IMG/VR virus record: IMGVR_UViG_3300018475_000104
Coordinates: 45,535 to 109,534 of that record
Length of the DNA: 64,000 nucleotides
Strand: one strand, 5' to 3'
Origin: a virus
Taxonomy: Duplodnaviria; Caudoviricetes
In this document: positions 9,916 through 55,645 of the stretch, piece by piece
Layout of the letters: each line of letters begins with the position of its first letter
Position numbering within the stretch: the first letter of the stretch is position 1
Translations under genes and position numbers: made by a program
Notes under the pieces: model-generated
Told to the model about the DNA's origin: nothing
Databases searched by the model: none
What the model saw: only the letters and a program-made list of their open reading frames with translations

Positions 9916-10604
9916 AATTAAAAATTGGACACCAAGAAGGGAAACCGCTTGTGTGAATCGTGTCAAATTCGGTAAAACTCTTTAGGAGAATACAATGGCA
10001 ACAAAAATTTCACTTTTAAGTGACGAAGAATTTTAGAAAATAATTTATGAATCTTATTCCTATGCTGAATGTTGTAGAAAGATTGGATATAGTGATAAAG
10101 GAAGTCATGGCACAGATGCGATAAAGAAAAGATGTCAAGAACTTAACTTGTCTACTAGTCATTTTTCTAAGACCAAGGCAGCAAATAAAAGTAGCACAAA
10201 ATATTCTTTAGATGATATATTGATTGAAAATTCTAATTATAAAAACATATCAAGATTAAAAACTCGACTAATCAATGAAAACAAACTTGAATATAAATGT
10301 GCTATATGTGGTAATACTGGAGAATGGAATAATAATCCCCTAGTTCTTCAATTAGACCATATTAATGGAAAACACAACGACCATCGTTTAGAAAATCTAA
10401 GATTCTTATGTCCTAACTGTCATTCTCAAACAGAAACATATTCTGGAAAAAATAAAAATAAAGACAATACCGAGCTAAATCAGTAAAAAACTGTAAATGT
10501 GTAGAGACTAAACGGCACGAACCTAAACCCAATTTGGGCATGGTTAAGATATAGTCCAGACTACAACACAAATAATTGTGGCCATGGTGACATGGAGTAG
10601 TATG
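9916..10604 (+). mobile_element. Group I self-splicing intron (689 nt) inserted between anticodon positions 35 and 36
   Basis: P1 with U.G wobble exactly at exon U35 (TCTAATT/AATTGGA). P3 CGTGTC/GGCACG. P4 TTCGGTA/TACCGAG. R element GTAGAGACTAA, S element AAGATATAGTCC. P9 hairpin CCATG-GTGA-CATGG with GNRA loop. Terminal omega-G at 10604. Confidence 0.92.
9995..10486 (+). CDS. Intron-encoded HNH homing endonuclease; in-frame TAG at codon 14 (10034)
   Basis: RBS AGGAG at 9984 and ATG 9995, in frame with ORF 10148..10486. CAIC...LDHING...HRLENLRFLCPNCH HNH motif. Confidence 0.88.
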
Positions 10605-30146: not shown

Positions 30147-33100
30147 TTACCGTTGTAGTGAAATTGTGTTTACATTTCGATACATACCATCTTCATAGAT
30201 ATTTTGTTTAATACGTTCACTTAACTGGTCTACATCGTAATCACTACCGATTTCATCAACAATGATATCAATATCAAAGTAGTTGTCGCCGCCTTGTGCG
30301 GAAGTTTTTCCGGACATCGCGCCGAGTGCATCGGCCAGGATATCTTTTAGTACGATAAAGTTTTTGGTGTCTTGTTGGTTTAGAACAAGTTCGGGATGGG
30401 ATTTTGTTCCGTCTAACCAAGCTGGGCCGGTGAAATCGGCAAGACCGCCGGTTTTGAAGGCTTTATACTTAGCGGATTTCATAACCGCATCATGAGTTTT
30501 TGGCCCATAAATACCATCAGCACTTACTCCAACTGCTTTTTGAAGTTTTCTTATTGCAGCAGTTGTTTTTTCACCAATAATACCATCAATAGAACCGGCA
30601 TTAAAACCTGCAGCATTTAAGGCTTTTTGAAGTGTTTTTATTTCACTTTTTGTTGTTGGCCGACGTTTTGAAGCAATAGTTTCTGTTAAAGACTTAAAGT
30701 AGCCCTTGTCAGTACCTTCGTTATCGTCAAGGGATGTTGTTCCTCCCTGCTCTCCACCTTGTGTTTTAGGAGATTCTTTCTTTTTCTCCCCAGCCTCTTC
30801 TGCAGTAGTATAATCTCCATTAAACATCTGCACAACGTCTTTATAAGTTTCACCATCTGCAGTTGTAACACTACCATCTTTATTAACAGTACCAGTTAAA
30901 GTCTCGCCTTTACTATTTCTAAAGGTGACAGTTTTACCAGCTATACCATCAATCTTCTCAAGCTATCTACTTGAACCTTCTCCTATAATCCAAGCCAAAC
31001 CACTCATTATAGTTTGTTCAAGATCATCAACCCAAGTAGCTTTTTGTTGTTCAGACATTGATTTCCAATCGCTATTAGCAGTTAAAAGTTTGCCTAAAGG
31101 AGAAGATGGATCAATTTTACCATCATTTTCAACCAGTTGGGCAATTAAATCATGTGCTTGTTCCCAGAAATATCCGGTTTCTTGCTAATAATCAAGCTAA
31201 GATTGCATTATCTCAATCTAACGTTCTCTTTGCTCTGCGGCCTCCTCATTGGCTTTATTTAGTCGTTCAATTTCTTGGTCAACTAAAGTATCGCCATAAG
31301 ATTCTCTTGCTTCGGCAAGTTGTTCTTCAAGTTCAAGAATCTCAAGACGATTACCGCTAGAAGTATCCGCGCGCAAGTATGCGAGACGAGCTTCCATTTC
31401 AGCAATATCTTCTTCTTGTTTTGTATTGTCGCGAATCTAACGCTCTAGGTCAATTGATTCCTGAAGTGCAGTTAGCATATTAGAAGAAGATTCAGACAAG
31501 GTTTCGGAAAGCGTTGAATAATTATCAATTAAAAGTTGTCTATCAGCAACAATTGCATCGTAAACTTGTTGTTCAAGTTCTTCATAATCTTCACGACCTT
31601 GCTCAAGAATCTCAGCAACTTTATCATCGATTTCATAAAGAGTATCTTCTGTTTCTTCGATTTGACCAGCAACTTCATCATAACGAGATTTTAAAGCTTC
31701 AATTAATGCACCCTGGTCTTCACCAGTTTTTTCATTTTTCTCAATTGCTTCAATTCTGTCCCAGTCAATCCAAAGCTCTCCGGTTTTCTGGTCATATCCC
31801 ATGTACTTATCAATTGAGCCAAGTCCAAGACGTTTGAATTCTTCCGCAAAAGTTGTACGGAATTGTTCCTCTTCATCTCCGTTCCTTTTTGTTGCAATGT
31901 AAGATTCATTTGCTAGATTCTTTAGTTGTCTTTTTCTTCCTTCAAGAAGTTCCTTTTGTAAGCTGCGCTCTCGTTCAAGATTTGCAAGTTGGTCTTTTTG
32001 GTTTTCGTAGAGGTCTTTGAAGGTTTTTGTACGATCTTTTAAGATTCGGTCGTAATCAATTTCAAGTTGATTGCGGTCACGAAGAGTTTCATCAATTTGT
32101 TCTTGTTTGTTGTGGAGTTCATCGTAGGGATTTTCCCAGTGCTAAGTTTTTGGCTTCGAGGACCCACCTCCGCCACCGCCTTTTTTCTATTTTCCAGCAT
32201 CTATATTGCCAGTAGAAATTCCTCCTCCACCAGAACCGGTAGAAGTTAAAGTTTTAACAACAGGAAAATAACCTGTTATACTTTGTGGCTATCCAGTTGT
32301 AGTAACAGTATGCCATTTTGTAGGCATTTTACTGCTCGGATCATATTCATCAATAACACGTTCTGTATATTCAGAAGGAACCATTCTGGTATCTTTAACA
32401 TATTCTATTTCTGCATCAAAACCCATTGCTTTAACAGATTCTTGAATCTGTTCAGCCGATAAGTTTGACGCTGCAGCCATATCGTTAAAGGCATTAATAA
32501 ATTCTTGTGACCCCTCGCCATTCCACTAGACACCAGCTTCTAAATTAGGAATATCAACCCCTTGTATATAGTCTGAAAATTCTTGAATGGCGCTTTTCGC
32601 ACCCTCAACATCTTCTACTTGTAAGCCTAAGTCTATATTATTTAGATAGTCAGAAGCAGCAGCTTTTTGTAATGCTTCTAAAGCTTCAGTATCTCCTTCT
32701 GCGGCCTTCTTTAGATTATCCATATTCTCTGCATTGTCCCAGAAGGCATCAGATAAATCTTCGGAAGTATTAAGCATTGTATTAACAGACTTCTTTAATT
32801 TATTATACGCTGCGACATCTTCGCTTGAACTTGCTTTTATAGTACCAGTATTTTCGTCAATCAATCCTGTCCATTCGTCATAAGATTCAATGATTTCACC
32901 TAAACCTAGATTCATCTTAGAATTTGCTAAGGCAACCTAAGTCGCAGTTACTTTGTTAAGACCTTCATTTATATTTTGAAGATGCTCAGCATAGGCTGTC
33001 ATTTCATTTACATCGAGACCTGCCTCTATAGCTTCATTTTGCGCACTATAGATTATACTTTCATCGCTATGGCCCAACGCCTCTGCTTCAGCCGAGCTAT

Positions 33101-36100
33101 ATTTGGCAGCTTCAGCCATCGCGGCAGCCTTTTCCAAAATAGCAGACGTCTCTTCGCCGGTATTTAAAAGATTAATATAATTATCATAAGCCTATTGAAT
33201 TCTTGCAATATAAGCCTCATTGGTTTCGTCTTCTCTCTTTCCGTCTTCGCCAAGAACGCCTAGCATACTACCAGCATTTTCAAGAGTAACTTCACCGCCA
33301 ATCAGTTTGCCATTATCATCAACAGAAGTTATCCCACCTAAACCTTTGTCTGTAATAGAAAACCGCCCAGTTTCTTCATCATAAATAATATTATCAGTTA
33401 CATTGCTAATAGCAGCTTCATAGGCTTTATTATGTCGAGTTAAAGTATTCTCCGCATTTATTGCGTTCTACTCTTTTAATTTTTCTGTAGCAACTTCAAT
33501 TTCTTCTGCTGAGGCCTACCAGCCTTCAGCAGTTAATTGAAAATTACTAATATCTACACCGGCCTCAACCAAATATTGAACATCTTCATAAGTCCCTTTT
33601 CCATCTGATAGGCGGCTCTCAATTTCGGAAATTCCTATAAGTTTTTGCTGGAACCTCTCTGTTAAATTTAATGCCTAACCAATACTTGTAACAAAAGCAT
33701 TGGCGCCTCCGGTTGCTTTTTCCCAAAAATTCTATACTTCAGTAGTATCAAAGCCCTAAGTCTATAAATATTCCATGGCTTCTACTGCCTAAGACATGTC
33801 TGACCAGTCGACAGTAGACAGATAATTACTTAAAACATTTTTTGCATTTCCCGACTTCTAAGACACTACTTGTTCAAACTCTTTGAGATAGTCTTCAGTA
33901 GCCTATTTAGATAAATTTTGAGTTTGTTTAGCTAAATTTGATAAAAGTGCAGGAGAAATTTCTGAAAGGAAGCCAGAGTCTACAAGTATACCCTTATTAT
34001 TAAAAGCTTTTGTAGCTTCTGTTTTAACCTAAGTAATCTATTCTTGAAATTTCTAATCCTCTAAAAATAGCTAAGCCTCTAGAGAAATAACTTCTCCTTT
34101 TTGTTCTTGTTCTGTTATATAACTATTAATATTTTCATCTGTTATTTCTTCTGGTTTTTTACCTTCTTTTTCCAAGGCAAAGCGTGCAACTGCTTTTTGT
34201 TCAGTATCACTCAAATCCTCAAAGAAAGTCATATCATATCCTAAATTTTCTCTAATTGCCGCTTCAGCTTCTGAACCTTCACCATAGATCTTTGTAAGAA
34301 GCTCATATTGAGAAGTTCCTTCCAAAGCCTTTAATTCTCCCATTGATAGCTTAGAAGTGTCCTTTGATATAAAAGCAGATAACTGTTTCTATTCTTCATC
34401 AGTTAATTTTTCCTGCATTGCTAGTCTGAATTCTTCTAATTTTGCTACTTTTTCCTCTGTCTTTAGAGCATACGCTATAGCCTTAGACATCTCTTTATAA
34501 TTACCTTCAATTTCAGCAGGAATTTCAGAGACTTTCATTACATCTTTATATAAAGCTTCTATCTGCTAATTTTCATTGCCAACAACGTCTAAATCTCGTG
34601 ATTCCATCAGCTCTTTTCTTTTCGCATCTTCTGAGCCTGAAGATTCAGTATTATAAATTTCGTCATAAACATAATCATCAATATAAGTACTATATTCTTC
34701 TTCTGACATTGGCTGAGCAAAACTACTAATAATTGCATCAGAATATTCATAATTAAGAGTCTCTTGAGACGCAGCAGTAGTTAATAATCCCTCTGTCATT
34801 GCCAAATTAGTGCTTTCAGCAGCCAATACTGCAGAAGTATAAGAAGTTAAAGCTCCTTCTAAAGTAGCAAGATGCATAGCAGTTTGAGAAGAACCATTAG
34901 CTAGTTTTAATAGATCTTCATTAAAAACCTTAATCGTATCATTGTCTTTGAAAAATAAATCAGGTCGATTGGTATAACCATAACTATCTAAAACTTTATT
35001 TTGTTCTTCTTGGGATAATTTTGAAAACTCTTCTTCAGTTAATTCTTTAGATGAAAAGATGGCAGGATTCTTTTTAAAACTATTTATAATAGTCTCTAAT
35101 GGAATACCAGCATTTATTAATAATTTTTCATACTCTTCAGTTAAATTTTCTTTTTCTCCGCCAGCACTTAGATTAGTTTGACGTACTTGATTCATTATTA
35201 AAGAAGCATTAGCAGCTTTTATACCTTTCTCTTGATCAGCAAGTACTTTTTCAAAGCCCTCATCACTAATAACTAGTTGTCCATCTTCGCCTCTAGATAG
35301 ATACTCAGCTAATTTAGGATAAGTATTTAAAAGTTGTAAAACTTGATTGTTTGCTTCAAGCAAGGCTTGCTTCCATTCATTTGTTCCCTTTGTTAAACCT
35401 TCAAGTGTTTTTTGAAGTTCATTAAATTCGTCTCTATCCTATAATAAATTATCATATTCTTCTTTTGCGGCTTTTGCAGACTATTCTGCCGCATCAGTGG
35501 CTTTTTTTGCTGCTTCAAGTTTTCCTTCTAGAGAATTAGCATAATCAGCTTTAAAAGTATTAATTAATATGCCAGCTAAAACTCCTAGTGCCGCGACCAC
35601 TCCAATAATCCAACCAATAACAGGAATAGATACTATTGATGTTGTAACGCTAGATGAAAAAATTTGTGCGGCAACCTAAACTACCTAAAAAATAACTGGT
35701 AAGGTCATTAAAGCTACACCAATTGCTTTTATTACAGTAGTAACTTCTTCTCCAACTCCCAAAGATTCCAATCCTTCCGCAGCAATCATTAACAGTCCAC
35801 CTACTGTTGCCGCGGCTTGACCCATAGTATCCATGGATGCCCCAAACTTATTTAACGTTGCTCCAGCCTAAGCCGCTTCTTTTCCAGTTAGCTAAATTTG
35901 CTTCCCCGTGCCTTCCAAAGCTTTATTAATACCATCTACATCTAAAGAATCCCCAGATAGACTACTTCGAATTTTATCATTTATCTCTTCTGAAAGGCCC
36001 ATGCCACTAACCTATGTTAAAATATTCTCTTTTAGGGCCGTCATGCCTTCTGGCTTTACATTTTCAAAATTTAATGAGTTTAAATCAAAAATTTTAGTAT

Positions 36101-38360
36101 AGTTTTTTTCTAAAATTGGTACACCTTTTTTAATACCAATAGCATTTAAAAGACTCTCTTTAAAACCTTTTTCTTTTATTCCTGTAATTTTTGCTTTTAT
36201 TCCATTAACTAAATTTTTTCCAATACCTTCTCCTTCTTTTTGGGCTTCTTTTCTTACATAACCCATACTCTTTAAAATACTGTCAAATGGACCAGCCTAA
36301 CCTTTCCCACCTAATAGGCCTCTGCCAATTTTAAAAGCACTTAAAAGACCCATGGCTGTTACAAAGGTTTTTACTATACCACTTCCGCCAGATAAAGTAT
36401 CTATTATTTTATTAAGTGTTTCTAAAAGAAAAGTTAGAGTTTCAACTCCAGCCTTTAATAAGTCACTATTAAATAGTCCCATAATAAAAGTATCCCAAGC
36501 ATTCTTTAACTCATTCAACTTTGAATCTAGACTATCTAGTGTTTTATTAAATTGTTCAGTACTTGCGCCAGCACTATTATTTGCCGCATTTGTTAATTCA
36601 ACAGTTCTTTCGTAGTCGCTCATCATAGCAATAAAACGAGACTGTTGTCTTGAACCTGCCGCAGTTGTGGCAATATATCTCTGTGTCTCAAAATCAAGTG
36701 TATCCCACTTTTCAGCAAGACGCAATAATACATCCTCTAAACCTTCAGTACCCTTAAAGAAGTCATCCATCGAAATTCCAACTGTTCTTAAAGCAGTTTG
36801 AATTTTATTTACATCAATAACTTCTCCTTCTTCATCTTCACCAGTACTCTGCCCTTCATTAGCTAATTTTTTAACTTCTGAAAAACGAGCAATAATTGTC
36901 TTTAATGCAGTACCAGCAGTTTCAGGAGCTTCTTGGGTTGTTTCAATAATCTGTGCTAATAGTGCCGCAGTATTTTCAAACTCCATATTAGCACTTGATG
37001 CGATTGAAGCAGTTTTAGACATAGCTGTGGCAATTTGGGAAGTATCAGCCGCAGTAATAGCCGCCAATTCTGAATAAACATCATTAACGGTTTGTGCGTT
37101 CATTTCATTTACTTCCATATTAAAACCACGTAGCGCCGCAGTCATTGCAGTGGTTGCTTCAGTAGCATCCATGTTAGCAATGCGCGCCATCTTCATGGTT
37201 TCAACACCAACGCCCATAGCTTCATTAGTCTTTAAGCCTTGCTGATAGTATAGAGTGGTTGCACCATATAAATCATTAATACGCGCGCCAAGCTAAGAAG
37301 CTTCTTGCGAATATTGTGGAAGTTTTCCCCACATATCCCCAACAGAAAACTCTGTAACTACAGCAGCCTCTGTCATTGTAGCGTCTAATTCTTTTACCGT
37401 TTCAAGGGCAGAATTAACAGCTCTTTTAAAAAGCTAAACAGCATTTCCAATTGAGAAAAAGTTTAAAATAGAGTTCTTTAAATGATCAACATCCTAAGCA
37501 GTTTTATTTAAAGAATTTGCAGTATCTACACTAGTCTTTCCAAAATTTTCAGCACTCTGGCGTGCCATTTCCATTTTTTCTTTTAGGTCTGGAAATTGAG
37601 CTATAAATTCATCCAATCTTTTCTAAGCTAAATTTTCAATTAAATTTGAAATATTTGCAATATCTGCTTTCGCGCCTTCAACGTCTCCACTATTAGCAAA
37701 ATTTGTAAGAGAGGTTTGTAACTCTTGAATTTGCTTTAAATACTCTTTTGCCGCAGTGTGTTCAGCACTTCCTGTTTTTTCTCCTTTCTCAAGCTTTGTT
37801 AATGTTGCCTTCGCAGTAGATTCAAGAGTTTTTAAAGCCTTTTCTGCGGCAGGAATATCATTTTCTGCTATCGCTTTTATAAAATTTTGGCTTGAAATAC
37901 CACCTTTTTTGCCAAAGTCCTGTAGTATCTAAGACATCTTGGCCGAAAAGCCTTTAAATTGATCACCATTTAATAAAGTTGTAAGTCTCTATTGAGCATT
38001 AGCCAGTTGCTTATTTAGTTCTTCAAGCTCTTTTGGATTAACCTAAAAAGAATCTCTAAGCATTCCAGGGCTAATCTGATTAGCCTGCTGCTAAAGCTAA
38101 AACATTAATTGATTAATCTTTTGATAGCTCTTTTCTAAAGCAGTAACGTCCCCTTGTTTTTTAAAACCAGAAGTCATTAGCCCCTAAATCTTACTTGTCT
38201 CTTTTTCAATTCCATCAAAAGTTTTTGTAAAACTTGTTTTTAATTTGTCTGGTAGCTTTAAACTATTAATCGCACTTTGAATTGCACCAACATTACTAGT
38301 AATATCTTTTATGTCGCTGACCATCTTCAAAGTAACTTGAATTGTTTGTTTATCTGCCAT
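30147..38360 (-). CDS. Tape measure protein (about 2737 aa, many TAG) with C-terminal peptidoglycan-binding domain
   Basis: Nine track fragments share the frame of ATG 38360. TP901-like TMP core (AGTALKTIIAR, AAGSRQ). PG_binding_1 motif LQKALNAAGF...DGIIGEKT...DGIYGPKT. Confidence 0.88.
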
Positions 38361-38380
38361 CTCTTTTCCTCCTAAATAAA

Positions 38381-38414
38381 AAAATCGACATTAATTAAAA
38401 ATTAATGTCGATTT
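38381..38414 (-). terminator. Hairpin/terminator upstream of the tape measure gene
   Basis: AAATCGACATTAATT/AATTAATGTCGATTT inverted repeat with a T-run on the - strand. Confidence 0.6.
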
Positions 38415-52565: not shown

Positions 52566-52675
52566 ATTTTTTTCGGAGAGAATTTTGGACGTAGAGGGCG
52601 GCGATGGGTTAAAAATTAGGAAAGTTGACGAAAGAGAAAATTTATGGTATAATAAAAGAAAAAGGAGTTTTAGAA

Positions 52676-52813
52676 ATGATTGATTTTTTGGCTATTTTAT
52701 TGGCAAAGGCGTTTTATGGGGATGAAGGGGCACAGGGTTGTTTAGTGCTGTTGATAGTTGCATTTTTTGTGCTAGGCGGGATTGGTGCGTTGATTGGGGC
52801 GATTTTTAATTAA
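52676..52813 (+). CDS. Small membrane peptide
   Basis: Own promoter (TTGACG 52625, TATAAT 52648), RBS AAGGAG, hydrophobic sequence. Confidence 0.6.
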   Translation: MIDFLAILLAKAFYGDEGAQGCLVLLIVAFFVLGGIGALIGAIFN

Positions 52814-52910
52814 GGTGGGTTTGAAAAATTATTTCGTGGTACTTAGATTCCAGGGCCACTTCATCACACTAAAGTGATAAAGCGTTCTTCCCAGAACCAA
52901 CGGGGGTTTA

Positions 52911-52940
52911 TTACAAAAGTGTTACAAAATGTTACAAAAG
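52911..52940 (+). repeat. Three tandem TTACAAAA repeats
   Basis: TTACAAAAGT GTTACAAAAT GTTACAAAAG just upstream of the first early promoter. Confidence 0.7.
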
Positions 52941-52968
52941 AAAGTCAAAAGAAATTATTAAAAAGGGG

Positions 52969-52997
52969 TTGACTTTAGACGGGGATAGTGGTATCAT
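52969..52997 (+). promoter_or_regulatory. First early promoter
   Basis: TTGACT-17 bp-TATCAT with TG; the spacer contains a TTAGACG half-site of the 19-bp palindrome. Confidence 0.7.
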
Positions 52998-53055
52998 TAT
53001 AAGCGTCAGGGGGACATACCCAAGGCATAAACCAAAACGAAAGAGAGACTGACCC

Positions 53056-53232
53056 ATGTTCAAGACTATCGAAGAAGAAATCCGCATCTATATCGCCACT
53101 GCCGAAGATTATCAGAACCGCGCAATTCAGGCTTTCGCCAAGGGCGACCTTGAAAAAGCCCATCAACTGATGGACATCGCCTGCGAAGGCAAGCGCATCG
53201 CGGATATGCTGACCCGATGGGTCAGCCAATAA
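53056..53232 (+). CDS. Hypothetical early protein (58 aa; below the track cutoff)
   Basis: MFKTIEEEIRIYIATAEDYQNRA...; GC-rich codon usage matches neighbours. Confidence 0.7.
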   Translation: MFKTIEEEIRIYIATAEDYQNRAIQAFAKGDLEKAHQLMDIACEGKRIADMLTRWVSQ

Positions 53233-53237
53233 CAAAA

Positions 53238-53283
53238 GCGTCTGCAGGTGTGAGTCCTGCACTGATGAGCAGAAGCTAAACGC
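53238..53283 (+). ncRNA. Type III hammerhead ribozyme, variant copy (G12U)
   Basis: GCGTC-TGCAGG[TGTGAGT]CCTGCA-CTGATGA-GC[AGAA]GC-TAAA-CGC; the core GAAA is TAAA. Confidence 0.7.
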
Positions 53284-53301
53284 AAGAAAGGGAGTAAGAC
53301 A

Positions 53302-53820
53302 ATGAAACAGTACACTTTCAACAAGACGGACTCCGGCTACCTTGGCAAGGCTTTCGAAATGGCGATAAAAGACGCCCTGCGTCGCAAGAACGCTGACCGC
53401 GTAAGCCCCTGCGGAAGCGCAGACTTCCGTTACAATCGCCGCAACTATGACAGCAAGCAGAACGGCTCTGTCCTGCGCTATGCTGAAACCGCCCAATATG
53501 TCAAGGGTTCAAGCCGTGTGGTATACGCCACACATATCGCCTACAATGTGGTAGCTGAAACCGCCGACACCATCACCATCGAAGTTGACCTGCTGAACAC
53601 TGATATGTTCGTGTTCGACCGCAAAGAATTCGTTGACTACCTGACGGAAATCGGCTGTGTCAAGGTCAACGCAAGCCGTGGAACGGTCAACATCCAGACC
53701 GTCTACAACTACAAAAAAGACGCCTACCATGGCCGCAAGGGGCGCATGATTGAAGAGTGGGGATTCGACCATGACCTGGGCGATGACATCATTGGGGACA
53801 TCTTGGCGGGGCTTGAATAA
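53302..53820 (+). CDS. Hypothetical early protein, possibly PD-(D/E)XK-like
   Basis: 172 aa; RBS GGGAG; GKAFE...ADF...YDSKQ spacing. Confidence 0.75.
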   Translation: MKQYTFNKTDSGYLGKAFEMAIKDALRRKNADRVSPCGSADFRYNRRNYDSKQNGSVLRYAETAQYVKGSSRVVYATHIAYNVVAETADTITIEVDLLNTDMFVFDRKEFVDYLTEIGCVKVNASRGTVNIQTVYNYKKDAYHGRKGRMIEEWGFDHDLGDDIIGDILAGLE

Positions 53821-53835
53821 GCCCCATGCCACCCC

Positions 53836-53885
53836 TTGGGTCTGCAGGTGTAAGTCCTGCACTGATGAGCAGAAGCGAAACCCAA
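53836..53885 (+). ncRNA. Type III hammerhead ribozyme, intact core; predicted cleavage after C53842
   Basis: TTGGGTC-TGCAGG[TGTAAGT]CCTGCA-CTGATGA-GC[AGAA]GC-GAAA-CCCAA; all conserved core bases and stems I-III present. Confidence 0.88.
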
Positions 53886-53905
53886 ACAAGAAAGGAAGTA
53901 TAACC

Positions 53906-54253
53906 ATGACCACTATCGAACTGAAGAATCTTGCCCATGCTAAGATGGTAGAAGCTATGACCCTGCTGAGAGCCGCCTATGAAATGGCTGACATGGAAGC
54001 CGCTAATGCAGAAACTAAAGAGCGCCATGCTGCTGATGTGCTTGCCCGTTTCGAACATATGTATCCTGTGTTTGAAGGGATGCCGAACTTTGAAGCTGAT
54101 ATGGACACTGCGCAGGAGGTCTATGACAACGCTTGGCGCAAGGCTGACCTGCTTCGCTATGATGCTGACCAGATTGATAGCGCGATGCTTACCATGCGCG
54201 ATGCGATTGATGCTATTGAAGATACATGGTACTATGAGGAACTGGGTCGCTGA
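53906..54253 (+). CDS. Hypothetical acidic helical early protein
   Basis: RBS AAGGAAG then ATG 53906 (MTTIELK). Confidence 0.75.
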   Translation: MTTIELKNLAHAKMVEAMTLLRAAYEMADMEAANAETKERHAADVLARFEHMYPVFEGMPNFEADMDTAQEVYDNAWRKADLLRYDADQIDSAMLTMRDAIDAIEDTWYYEELGR

Positions 54254-54366
54254 TGGCGACCCTTTTCTTATTGGTTAGATTTAGACGTTCGACGTCTAAA
54301 CCATGTATTGACGCAAGCGCGCAGGTGTGGTATAATGAGGGTACCGAAGTAAGGGAGGGAAAAAGT

Positions 54367-54534
54367 ATGAAGTGTGTGTACTTTGAGGATGGGACTATTA
54401 TGATGTGTGAGCGGCAGTGCACTCTGCGCCGCAATATAAAGGTGAAGCTGAGCTGTGATGGACCTATGCGCTACTGGTTCAGGCCTACGGATGCATATCG
54501 TAAGGCTATGATACGTTATCAGCTTATATATTAA
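54367..54534 (+). CDS. Hypothetical early protein
   Basis: Promoter at 54308-54336, RBS GGGAGG, ATG 54367. Confidence 0.7.
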   Translation: MKCVYFEDGTIMMCERQCTLRRNIKVKLSCDGPMRYWFRPTDAYRKAMIRYQLIY

Positions 54535-54657
54535 GCTGATGGCGGCTGTTTAGACGTGTTACGTCTAAATTAGGGGTTGACGATTTTTGGAAAAAATGGT
54601 ATACTATGCTTGCAAGTTGAGGGAAGGACACCCACCAAACCGGAAAGGAAGATAAAA

Positions 54658-55056
54658 ATGCGAGTAACGAAGAACATCAAGGAATACATTGAGCGCCATG
54701 TGAAGGAAAAGGTCTATGCCAAGTATGAGACCGAGCGCCTGGAAGCTGAAAGACAGCGCAAAATTGTCGATGATTTTTGGGAAAAAATGACTGAAACCGT
54801 AGAGCGTCAGGCTGAAACTATGGTCAATGAATTTTTGGAAAATCATGGTGATATCGTAGAAAGAACTTCTGAACGAGATATCGTTAGTTATTGTTCCTAT
54901 GTCCTCCAGCTTAAGGACAAATGCTATATCAATTCTGTGCATAAGTGGCGCGAGCGTGCAAACACGGAAGTTCGAGAAATTGTGGATAATATTATCGTAA
55001 CTCTTGAACTTGGCGGTTCCAAAGCAGATTTGGACAGAATGTTGAGTGAGATTTAA
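54658..55056 (+). CDS. Hypothetical early protein
   Basis: Promoter at 54577-54605, RBS AAGGAAG; followed by a GGAAGGGGAG/CTCCCCTTCC terminator. Confidence 0.75.
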   Translation: MRVTKNIKEYIERHVKEKVYAKYETERLEAERQRKIVDDFWEKMTETVERQAETMVNEFLENHGDIVERTSERDIVSYCSYVLQLKDKCYINSVHKWRERANTEVREIVDNIIVTLELGGSKADLDRMLSEI

Positions 55057-55195
55057 CGGAAGGGGAGTTTCTCCCCTTCCTTTCCTTTTTTTCACAAAAA
55101 AAATTAGACGTCAAACGTCTAAATTAACCGTTGACTTTTTTCAGAAAATCGTTTATAATGAGGTCACAAGGTTGAGAAAGAAAGGGGTCAGAAAA

Positions 55196-55645
55196 ATGAC
55201 TATTTACTTTGACATGGACGGAACTATTGCCAATCTGTATGGTGTGGAAAATTGGCTCGAAAAATTGCGCGCGGAAGATGCGTCGCCGTATCTGGAAGCT
55301 GAGCCGCTGGTAGATATGCGTGAGCTGTCGCGCCTGCTGAATATTCTCCAGCTCAGCGGCGTAAATTTGGGCATTATTTCTTGGCTGAGCAAGGATGCCA
55401 CAAAAGAATATGATAAAATGGTGCGCCGCGCGAAAAGGGAATGGCTTATAAAAAATTTGCCAGCTGTTGAATGGGACGAAATCCATTTGGTAAAATATGG
55501 AACACCGAAACATTCTTGCTGTCGAGAAAATTTTGGAATTTTATTCGATGACAATGATGCCGTGCGTGAAAAGTGGGAAAAACGGGGAACGGCATTTGAT
55601 GTCGGAAATATTTTAGAAATTTTGGAGATTTTCTCCTTAATTTAA
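55196..55645 (+). CDS. HAD-family 5'(3')-deoxyribonucleotidase-like phosphatase
   Basis: IYFDMDGTIA motif I, K..WL, ILFDD motif IV. Confidence 0.85.
   Translation: MTIYFDMDGTIANLYGVENWLEKLRAEDASPYLEAEPLVDMRELSRLLNILQLSGVNLGIISWLSKDATKEYDKMVRRAKREWLIKNLPAVEWDEIHLVKYGTPKHSCCRENFGILFDDNDAVREKWEKRGTAFDVGNILEILEIFSLI

What the first reader, a model, noticed from the sequence alone, without database searches (positions are those of the whole stretch)
53836..53885. Intact type III hammerhead ribozyme directly upstream of an early-gene RBS
Seen: GUC cleavage triplet, 6-bp stem I, CUGAUGA, 2-bp stem II, GAAA and stem III (TTGGGT/ACCCAA). It lies between a stop codon (53820) and an RBS/ATG (53906). 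Known: hammerheads self-cleave after NUH and leave a 5'-OH. Inference: it cuts the first early polycistronic mRNA into units with a hairpin-protected 5'-OH end, a natural RiboJ-like insulator or stabiliser that needs no host RNase.
Basis: partly seen in the sequence, partly recalled or inferred. Interest (0 to 1): 0.75.

Follow-up and report, generated by a model that had tools for sequence, protein, structure and literature searches.

The report
Phage hammerhead ribozyme between early genes
A complete type III hammerhead self-cleaving RNA motif sits between two early genes of a ~110-kb phage; it belongs to a recurrent subclass found in many phage contigs, so it is real but of a kind known since 2011.

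Summary
Window 53835-53886 (+) carries every defining hammerhead feature: GUC cleavage site (C53842|U53843), CUGAUGA, GAAA, a 6-bp stem I, a 2-bp stem II and a 6-bp stem III.

- **Statistics.** Rfam Hammerhead_3 scores it 35.6 bits. That is below the curated cut-off of 48.5, but E = 2e-7 for the whole genome. No descriptor hit occurred in 200 shuffles.
- **Subclass.** A scan of IMG/VR found 76 full hammerheads with this stem II (40 distinct sequences with exactly this stem I/loop I geometry). Stems I and III covary, and there is a perfect loop I - loop II covariation.
- **Synteny.** A relative whose flanking protein is 58% identical has the ribozyme at the same position, with two compensatory stem I pairs.
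- **Second copy.** A copy 600 nt upstream (53235-53286) has the general base G12 replaced by U. It is probably dead, and no other G12 variant was found in IMG/VR.
- **Cassette.** Both copies sit in the same arrangement: a GC-rich hairpin at the end of the upstream ORF, the hammerhead, then an extended Shine-Dalgarno and a start codon. This recurs across the subclass.
- **Mechanism (inferred).** Self-cleavage most likely cuts the first early transcript into units with hairpin-protected ends.

Phage hammerheads that flank genes, and 2-bp stems II, were described by Perreault et al. 2011. This is a new member of a known kind. Cleavage and its effect remain untested.

The parts
53835..53886 (+). 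Hammerhead copy B, intact type III. Stem III 53836-41/53880-85; cleavage C53842|U53843; stem I 53843-48/53856-61; loop I 53849-55; CUGAUGA 53862-68; stem II 53869-70/53875-76; loop II 53871-74; GAA 53877-79.
   Evidence: Sequence. RF00008 35.6 bits, full-length alignment. Class model R1 70.5 bits, though this sequence was in the model's training set. Descriptor hit with 0 of 200 shuffles matching. Stems I and III are kept in the MFE and centroid folds of the 121-nt native context.
53235..53286 (+). Hammerhead copy A. The 37-nt stretch from G16.2 to C11.1 matches copy B except for one loop I base. Stem III is GCGU/ACGC (53238-41/53280-83). U replaces G12 at 53277, so it is probably catalytically dead.
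   Evidence: RF00008 23.6 bits. 34-nt repeat found only twice in the window. Compensatory C-G to G-C change in stem III relative to copy B. No G12 variant of the class elsewhere in IMG/VR. The MFE of the native context prefers an alternative fold.
53803..53831 (+). GC-rich hairpin (core GGGGCUU/AAGCCCC, 53808-53825) spanning the TAA stop at 53818-53820 of the upstream ORF, 10 nt before stem III. [quoted passage not shown]
   Evidence: -17.2 kcal/mol for the 36-nt window; none of about 150 local background windows folds as well. Conserved in the syntenic relative L019. Not followed by a U tract, so it is not an intrinsic terminator.
53208..53226 (+). Equivalent hairpin upstream of copy A (GCUGACCC/GGGUCAGC), just before the TAA stop at 53230-53232.
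   Evidence: -14.2 kcal/mol, 1st percentile of local background; present in the MFE fold.
53888..53908 (+). Extended Shine-Dalgarno AAGAAAGGAAG (53888-53898) and the ATG at 53906 of the downstream ORF. This stretch is predicted to be unpaired.
   Evidence: Copy A has the parallel AGAAAGGGAG (53285-53294) and an ATG at 53302.
53906..54253 (+). Downstream ORF, 115 aa, no family match. It would become a monocistronic mRNA of about 420 nt after cleavage.
   Evidence: Not detectably homologous to the gene after the ribozyme in L019.
53302..53820 (+). 172-aa ORF flanked by the two hammerhead copies. Conserved early protein, probably a PD-(D/E)XK-fold nuclease.
   Evidence: 200 homologues at E <= 0.001; the 120 listed are 61-92% identical. 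AlphaFold2 model pLDDT 89. Best structural matches are restriction or homing endonucleases and Hjc: NhoI Z 7.1, Eco15I N-terminal domain 5.5, I-Ssp6803I 4.5. No Pfam, PHROG or PDB sequence hit.
53056..53232 (+). First ORF of the unit, 58 aa.
   Evidence: only a sub-threshold DUF1771 hit.
52969..52997 (+). Promoter-like site TTGACT-17-TATCAT with an extended -10 TG. Probable start of the three-gene transcript that carries both hammerheads.
   Evidence: It is one of 11 sites with at least 10 of 12 matches on the + strand between 52625 and 58165.
54244..54262 (+). Terminator-like hairpin (8 bp, 6 GC, then a U-rich tail) at the end of the downstream ORF.

Best explanation
Copy B (53835-53886) is a functional type III hammerhead of a phage-specific subclass. 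It is transcribed by host RNA polymerase as part of a three-gene early mRNA that starts at the promoter at 52969-52997.

Once stems I-III and the loop I/loop II contact form, G12 activates the 2'-OH of C53842 and the chain breaks between 53842 and 53843. Two products result:
- The upstream RNA (the 58-aa ORF, the dead copy A and the nuclease-like 172-aa ORF) ends in a 2',3'-cyclic phosphate, 17 nt after a stable GC hairpin.
- The downstream RNA begins with a 5'-OH that is flush with the 6-bp stem I hairpin. It carries an unpaired extended SD and the 115-aa ORF.

The cassette thus turns one transcript into two units with hairpin-capped ends, so their stability and translation are uncoupled. Copy A, with U12, probably no longer cleaves, which would keep the first two ORFs on one RNA.

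Shown here: motif integrity, statistical significance, subclass recurrence with covariation, syntenic conservation and the cassette architecture. Inferred: cleavage itself, the transcript boundaries and the effect on stability and translation.
For: - **Motif and significance:**
- **Subclass:** 76 of 113 IMG/VR hits to CTGATGAGC-N4-GCGAAAC are full type III hammerheads. Of these, 73 have exactly a 6-bp stem I and a 7-nt loop (about 0.3 expected by chance), giving 40 distinct sequences.
- **Covariation on 42 sequences:** 89% of cells paired against 68.5% in shuffles. Covariation score 0.50 against 0.11 in shuffles and 0.05-0.13 with partners slid. Five of 6 stem I pairs and 5 of 7 stem III pairs change on both sides. 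Stem I pairing was a selection criterion; stem III pairing was not.
- **Loop contact:** loop I position 2 and loop II position 3 covary perfectly (A/G 30, G/A 8, G/U 4, no mixed cases). This fits the loop-loop motif of natural hammerheads (PMC2632901).
- **G12:** no variant at this position was found in IMG/VR for the subclass, which points to selection on catalysis.
- **Synteny:** relative L019 has the ribozyme at the same site, with two compensated stem I pairs and a conserved upstream hairpin and SD.
- **Context across the class:** the upstream ORF ends within 50 nt upstream of the element in 33 of 42 cases, and an SD plus start follows within 36 nt in 29 of 42. An unusually stable upstream hairpin is present in 29 of 40, where about 2 are expected.
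- **Native-context fold** keeps the hammerhead stems and leaves the SD free.
- **Early-region setting:**
- **Literature:** phage hammerheads flank genes and are proposed to process long transcripts, and 2-bp stems II are common (PMC3088659); G12 is the general base (PMC6155905).
Against: - There are no cleavage data and no RNA-end data.
- The score is below Rfam's curated cut-off.
- A 2-bp stem II is weak, and activity depends on a tertiary contact that is only inferred.
- The twin copy has lost G12 yet keeps every other feature, which could mean that cleavage is dispensable here.
- The ribozyme is absent from the same site in five more distant homologous loci, so it is not essential for this operon type.
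- A 5'-OH can destabilise RNA in hosts that have RNase J.
Confidence: 0.65

Rival explanations
1. Selfish or near-neutral cassette. The hairpin-hammerhead-SD module spreads by duplication or recombination among phage intergenic gaps and persists because it does little harm. Cleavage happens but brings no benefit to this operon.
For: - Distribution among homologous loci is patchy.
- The two copies in one genome are nearly identical, while the syntenic copy in a relative differs in stem I and both loops.
- One copy is already mutated at G12.
- The genes next to the class members vary (also stated in PMC3088659).
Against: - Placement relative to the stop codon and SD is strict across 42 sequences.
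- The upstream hairpin is conserved.
- No G12 variant was found elsewhere.
- Changes are compensatory.
Together these indicate purifying selection on a working ribozyme in a defined mRNA position.
Confidence: 0.17
2. Structural RNA element whose role does not need cleavage, for example a folding insulator, a protein-binding site or a stabiliser. The hammerhead core would be a relic.
For: Copy A keeps the stems, both loops, the upstream hairpin and the SD although G12 is lost.
Against: All core nucleotides are intact in copy B and in all 40 distinct class sequences from other contigs. No G12 variant was found in IMG/VR. Copy A's native-context fold does not even favour the hammerhead shape.
Confidence: 0.08
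3. The two copies act together to excise the 600-nt segment 53243-53842 (the 172-aa ORF), which is then circularised or spliced.
For: The copies are exactly 600 nt apart and flank a single ORF. Excision or circularisation was raised as a possibility for clustered phage hammerheads (PMC3088659).
Against: Copy A lacks the general base G12. A junction hammerhead would pair UUGGGU with ACGCAA, which is mismatched. Perreault et al. looked for such products and found none (PMC3088659).
Confidence: 0.03
4. Chance resemblance with no biological meaning.
For: The score is below Rfam's gathering score.
Against: E = 2.4e-7 for the genome. 0 of 200 shuffles gave a hit. The subclass recurs with covariation. 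The site is conserved in synteny.
Confidence: 0.01

Closest known systems
Bacterial and phage hammerhead ribozymes that flank genes (Perreault et al. 2011, PMC3088659; review PMC6155905)
   Same: Consensus core, intergenic position in phage operons, several copies flanking a single small gene, and stem II often only 2 bp. Some copies carry core mutations and are inactive. The proposed role is processing of long phage transcripts.
   Different: Here the topology is type III, with a fixed geometry (6-bp stem I, 7-nt loop U-R-N-R-A-G-U, GC/GC stem II, mostly A-N-R-A loop II) and a non-Watson-Crick loop contact. Many bacterial type II examples use a pseudoknot instead. I could not find this sequence class in the supplements of that paper that are held as text, so I do not know whether this exact subclass was listed.
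Viroid and satellite type III hammerheads with the loop 1 / loop 2 motif (CChMVd, sTRSV; Dufour et al. 2009, PMC2632901); Rfam RF00008
   Same: Type III topology. Heptanucleotide loop 1 that begins with U and has a U at its 3' side. Purine-rich loop 2 ending in A (RNnA). The functional link between loop 1 position 2 and the penultimate loop 2 base is mirrored here by perfect covariation.
   Different: Stem II is 2 bp, where the RF00008 model has a longer stem-loop II, so the score is 35.6 against a cut-off of 48.5. Loop 1 fits UNmYN only if the closing pair of stem I opens. The setting is a DNA phage mRNA, not a rolling-circle RNA replicon.
RiboJ (synthetic insulator: sTRSV hammerhead plus a 23-nt hairpin). 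This comparison rests on my own knowledge.
   Same: Cleavage near the 5' edge removes the upstream RNA and leaves the ribozyme body on the downstream mRNA just before the RBS. The 5' end is a hydroxyl.
   Different: This element is natural. No extra downstream hairpin is predicted between stem III and the SD. It acts between cistrons rather than after a promoter, and a hairpin is placed upstream instead, on the 5' product.
glmS ribozyme (PMC6765202)
   Same: A self-cleaving RNA within a bacterial mRNA whose cleavage changes the fate of that mRNA.
   Different: glmS is ligand-dependent, lies in a 5' UTR, and its cleavage leads to degradation of the mRNA (PMC6765202). No ligand pocket or regulation is evident here.

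Membership tests
Hammerhead ribozyme (core definition of Perreault et al. 2011) | C3 U4 G5 A6 N7 G8 A9 | tested here: met
   CUGAUGA at 53862-53868 in copy B and at 53262-53268 in copy A.
Hammerhead ribozyme (core definition of Perreault et al. 2011) | G12 A13 A14 | tested here: met
   Copy B: GAA at 53877-53879. Copy A does NOT meet this feature: U at 53277. Only copy B is filed as a member; copy A is a hammerhead-derived variant.
Hammerhead ribozyme (core definition of Perreault et al. 2011) | A15.1-U16.1 pair and H17 at the cleavage site | tested here: met
   A53880 pairs with U53841; C53842 is H17, giving a GUC triplet.
Hammerhead ribozyme (core definition of Perreault et al. 2011) | Three helices, with no mispair next to the core (1.1-2.1, 10.1-11.1) | tested here: met
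   U53843-A53861 and G53869-C53876. Stems are 6, 2 and 6 bp. Class-wide covariation in stems I and III.
Hammerhead type III (Rfam RF00008) | Open stem III, with hairpin loops closing stems I and II | tested here: met
   Full-length alignment to RF00008, model positions 1-54.
Hammerhead type III (Rfam RF00008) | Score at or above the curated gathering score (48.5 bits) | tested here: not met
   35.6 bits; E = 2.4e-7 for the genome. In the alignment only 4 nt stand where the model has 12 positions in stem-loop II. This is a database threshold, not a structural criterion.
Hammerhead ribozyme | Tertiary contact between loop I and loop II, needed for activity at physiological Mg2+ | tested here: inconclusive
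   Loop II AGAA fits RNnA. Loop I UGUAAGU fits UNmYN only partly (PMC2632901). Perfect covariation of L1.2 with L2.3 in 42 sequences, but it is not corrected for relatedness.
Hammerhead ribozyme | Site-specific self-cleavage that yields a 2',3'-cyclic phosphate and a 5'-OH | not testable with these tools
   Needs a cleavage assay or RNA-end mapping.
RAGATH-5 (RF02685), considered for the upstream hairpin | Match to the covariance model, and recurrence next to class members | tested here: not met
   18 bits against a cut-off of 50, E = 0.57 in a 161-nt search. Only chance-level matches in five other records that carry the hammerhead class.

The most novel reading that the evidence does not exclude
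The three-part cassette (3'-capping hairpin, rigid-geometry type III hammerhead, flush 5' hairpin plus SD) is a modular 'mRNA punctuation mark', found here in phage contigs and in assemblies mostly labelled as Clostridia. It would make defined cistron-length mRNAs without host RNases. In some lineages the SD (GGAGG) lies inside the 3' strand of stem III and would be unmasked only by cleavage. Natural G12 knock-outs such as copy A would be a way to switch a punctuation mark off and re-couple neighbouring genes.
Probability: 0.25. Interest if true: 0.55.

Novelty: new member of a known kind. Interest (0 to 1): 0.35.

Why it matters
The biological role of bacterial and phage hammerheads is still called an open question (PMC6155905, PMC6765202). 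This locus offers a compact test case. It has an intact ribozyme and a natural G12-mutant twin in the same three-gene early transcript, with clear predictions for the RNA ends. The subclass alignment also yields a testable tertiary contact (loop I position 2 with loop II position 3). Its recurrent upstream hairpin and downstream SD suggest end protection and, in some phages, SD unmasking. None of this changes the picture of what hammerheads are. It refines where and how one phage subclass is deployed.

Tried and rejected
- **Default Rfam scan** of the window: no hit at gathering thresholds. The hammerhead appears only with E-value thresholds.
- **Rfam E-value scan of 62 kb of related loci:** it missed all the hammerheads because of its filters and found only a twister-P1 in L013.
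- **Similar DNA:** none in 50,697 deposited phage genomes. The exact 22-nt core-plus-stem I string is absent from IMG/VR.
- **The search for related loci:** the single 172-aa protein found nothing. With an alignment it gave 3 viral and 7 metagenome loci, of which only L019/L020 carry the ribozyme.
- **RAGATH-5** as the identity of the upstream hairpin: rejected.
- **More ribozymes in this phage:** none. The class model finds only the two copies in the genome, and Rfam E-value scans of the rest of the window gave nothing credible.
- **Loop I-loop II pseudoknot:** no Watson-Crick complementarity is visible in the sequences.
- **The 172-aa protein:** Foldseek against the PDB gave no match, as did the PDB sequence profile. 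Only the VIA-align wide search gave nuclease folds, at middling Z.
- **Literature:** Jimenez 2011 and Weinberg 2015 are not held. The class sequences were not found in the held supplements of Perreault 2011.

Full report
**1. What is there**

Window 53835-53886 (+) reads, 5' to 3':
- stem III strand UUGGGU (53836-53841);
- C17 at 53842;
- stem I UGCAGG / CCUGCA (53843-48 / 53856-61), closed by the 7-nt loop UGUAAGU;
- CUGAUGA (53862-68);
- a 2-bp stem II GC/GC with loop AGAA;
- GAA (53877-79);
- stem III strand ACCCAA (53880-85).

All 13 core positions used by Perreault et al. 2011 to define a hammerhead are met. So are the three core-adjacent pairs: U-A at 1.1-2.1, G-C at 10.1-11.1 and A-U at 15.1-16.1.

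**2. Is it more than chance?**

- The default Rfam scan reports nothing, because the site scores 35.6 bits against a gathering score of 48.5 for Hammerhead_3.
- With E-value thresholds the match is full length (model 1-54). E = 1.5e-6 locally, 1.2e-4 for 13 kb against all 4227 families, and 2.4e-7 for the 109.5-kb genome against this family.
- In the alignment only 4 nt stand where the model has 12 positions in stem-loop II, which I take to be the cause of the shortfall.
- A descriptor I wrote (UH, hairpin stem I, CUGANGA, stem II of at least 2 bp, GAAA, stem III of at least 3 bp) finds only this site in the window and nothing in 200 dinucleotide shuffles.

**3. A second copy**

The same search shows a twin 600 nt upstream, at 53235-53286 (23.6 bits).
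- From G16.2 to C11.1 (37 nt) it differs from copy B at one loop I base. The 34-nt repeat occurs only at these two places.
- Its stem III is GCGU/ACGC. This differs from copy B by a compensated C-G to G-C exchange.
- Position 12 is U instead of G (53277).
- G12 is the general base of the reaction (PMC6155905), and core mutants were treated as non-members or found inactive by Perreault et al. (PMC3088659). I therefore treat copy A as probably dead.
- A class-specific IMG/VR scan that allowed A, C or U at position 12 found no such variant, whereas the G version is common. This argues both that catalysis is under selection in the class and that copy A is an exception.
- An assembly or population variant cannot be excluded.

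**4. The subclass**

- A scan of IMG/VR for CTGATGAGC-N4-GCGAAAC gave 113 hits. Of these, 76 are complete type III hammerheads, and 73 have exactly a 6-bp stem I and a 7-nt loop, where about 0.3 would be expected by chance.
- These reduce to 40 distinct 52-nt sequences. Aligned without gaps with the two window copies they form alignment A2.
- On A2, 89% of cells are paired, against 68.5% in shuffles. The covariation score is 0.50, against 0.11 in shuffles and 0.05-0.13 with partners slid. Five of 6 stem I pairs and 5 of 7 stem III pairs change on both sides.
- Stem I pairing was a selection criterion for A2. Stem III pairing was not.
- Loop I is U-R-N-R-A-G-U and loop II is mostly A-N-R-A.
- Loop I position 2 and loop II position 3 covary perfectly: A with G 30 times, G with A 8 times, G with U 4 times, and never otherwise (Fisher p = 9e-11, not corrected for relatedness).
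- The stem I shared by the window copies (UGCAGG/CCUGCA) occurs with both loop states (window and L079), so the link is not just two clades.
- This matches the loop-loop motif described for viroid hammerheads: loop 1 starts with U and has a 3' U; loop 2 fits RNnA; and loop 1 position 2 was mutated together with the penultimate loop 2 base in that work (PMC2632901).
- A model built from A2 finds only the two copies in the phage genome.

**5. Conservation in a relative**

- The 172-aa ORF between the copies has 200 homologues at E <= 0.001; the 120 listed are 61-92% identical.
- In L019/L020 (a 144.6-kb viral contig; protein 58% identical) a hammerhead sits at the same place after the gene.
  - It has the same stop-codon hairpin, the same stem III start (UGGGUC) and the same SD (AAGAAAGGAAG).
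  - Stem I carries two fully compensated pair changes (AGCCGG/CCGGCU), and both loops are in the other covarying state.
  - The gene that follows is not detectably homologous, so the cassette goes with the 3' end of the nuclease-like gene.
- Five more distant loci have no ribozyme there. Presence is patchy, as is usual for hammerheads.

**6. Context and likely mechanism**

*Setting.* The region 52625-58165 carries 11 + strand promoter-like sites with at least 10 of 12 matches, most with an extended -10, interspersed with terminators. Its ORFs are open in the standard code. The structural genes on the - strand need TAG read as sense: for example, the tape-measure frame is 2747 aa with 44 in-frame TAGs. 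This fits an early region read by the unmodified host machinery.

*Transcription unit.* In order:
1. promoter 52969-52997;
2. 58-aa ORF;
3. copy A;
4. 172-aa ORF;
5. copy B;
6. 115-aa ORF;
7. terminator-like hairpin 54244-54262.

No terminator lies before copy B.

*Cassette.* Each copy is preceded by a stable GC hairpin at the end of the upstream ORF (53208-53226; 53808-53825, spanning the stop). Each is followed by an extended SD 5-8 nt after stem III and a start codon. Across the class:
- the upstream ORF ends within 50 nt upstream of the element in 33 of 42 cases;
- an SD plus start follows within 36 nt in 29 of 42;
- the 36 nt upstream fold better than 95% of local windows in 29 of 40 cases, where about 2 are expected.

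*Fold.* In the 121-nt native context the minimum-energy and centroid folds keep the upstream hairpin, stem III and stem I, and leave the SD unpaired.

*Inference.* Cleavage gives an upstream RNA ending 17 nt after a protective hairpin. It gives a downstream RNA whose 5'-OH nucleotide is already paired in stem I.
- Class members in genome assemblies are mostly labelled Clostridia: Butyrivibrio, an Eubacteriales MAG and Caproicibacter, plus two Bacteroidota MAGs.
- The SD and promoter style also suggest Bacillota.
- In such hosts a 5'-OH by itself invites RNase J (my own knowledge). The flush hairpin, not the hydroxyl, would therefore be the stabiliser.
- In several other class members (for example L033, L047, L063) GGAG of the SD lies inside the 3' strand of stem III and would be freed by cleavage. 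That is not the case in this window.

**7. Comparison with what is known**

- Perreault et al. 2011 reported hundreds of bacterial hammerheads, many near prophage genes. They noted copies flanking single genes, stems II of only 2 bp, non-functional variants, and the idea that long phage transcripts are cut into gene-length mRNAs (PMC3088659).
- Reviews still call the role open (PMC6155905, PMC6765202).
- The present element is therefore a new member of a known kind.
- What this analysis adds:
  - a definition of a rigid type III subclass;
  - a covariation that supports its loop contact;
  - the recurrent hairpin-ribozyme-SD layout;
  - a natural G12 mutant twin.

**8. Rivals**

- Selfish or neutral cassette: 0.17.
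- Structural element that does not need cleavage: 0.08.
- Excision or circularisation of the 600-nt segment: 0.03. It is disfavoured by U12 in copy A and by a mismatched junction stem.
- Chance: 0.01.

**9. Verdict**

The motif is real, intact and under selection (about 0.9). It probably cleaves (about 0.8). Transcript processing with end protection is the best functional reading (0.65 for the combined statement). Interest is 0.35.

Noticed in passing
window 16722-52421, - strand (e.g. 30150-38390): The late structural genes are open only if TAG is read as a sense codon. The tape-measure frame is 2747 aa with 44 in-frame TAGs, and neighbouring frames have 10-19. The early region and the replication genes use the standard code. 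No suppressor tRNA is present among the 5 tRNAs on the 109.5-kb record, which CheckV rates 89% complete. This looks like a TAG-recoded phage.
   Followed up: partly
window 53302-53820 (+): The ORF between the two hammerheads is a widely conserved early protein (200 homologues). It has a confident AlphaFold2 model (pLDDT 89). Its best structural matches are PD-(D/E)XK nucleases (NhoI Z 7.1, Eco15I N-terminal domain 5.5, I-Ssp6803I 4.5, Hjc 4.0). Aligned columns D41, the D/E at position 50 and K52 fit the motif. No Pfam or PHROG family matches.
   Followed up: partly
window 55104-55122, 56337-56355, 58100-58118: A 19-bp palindrome, TTAGACGT-N3-ACGTCTAA, recurs between early gene cassettes. It turned up in the terminator scan.
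   Followed up: no
L013 2027-2086 (+): A twister-P1 match (50.6 bits against a cut-off of 67.2, E = 2e-8) lies about 800 nt upstream of a class hammerhead in another viral contig. This agrees with the known co-occurrence of twister and hammerhead ribozymes.
   Followed up: no
L033, L047, L051, L063, L100; partly L052, L054, L062: In these class members the SD (GGAG/GGAGG) is part of the 3' strand of stem III, and the start codon follows 5-8 nt later. Cleavage and release of the 7-nt 5' strand would unmask the ribosome-binding site.
   Followed up: partly
L088 1145-1196 and 1471-1522 (-): Another viral contig has two class hammerheads 326 nt apart. Their stems I differ, unlike the near-identical pair in this window.
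   Followed up: no
window 10338-10581 (+): Weak group I intron match (22.1 bits against a cut-off of 50, E = 0.18) in the nucleotide-metabolism gene block.
   Followed up: no
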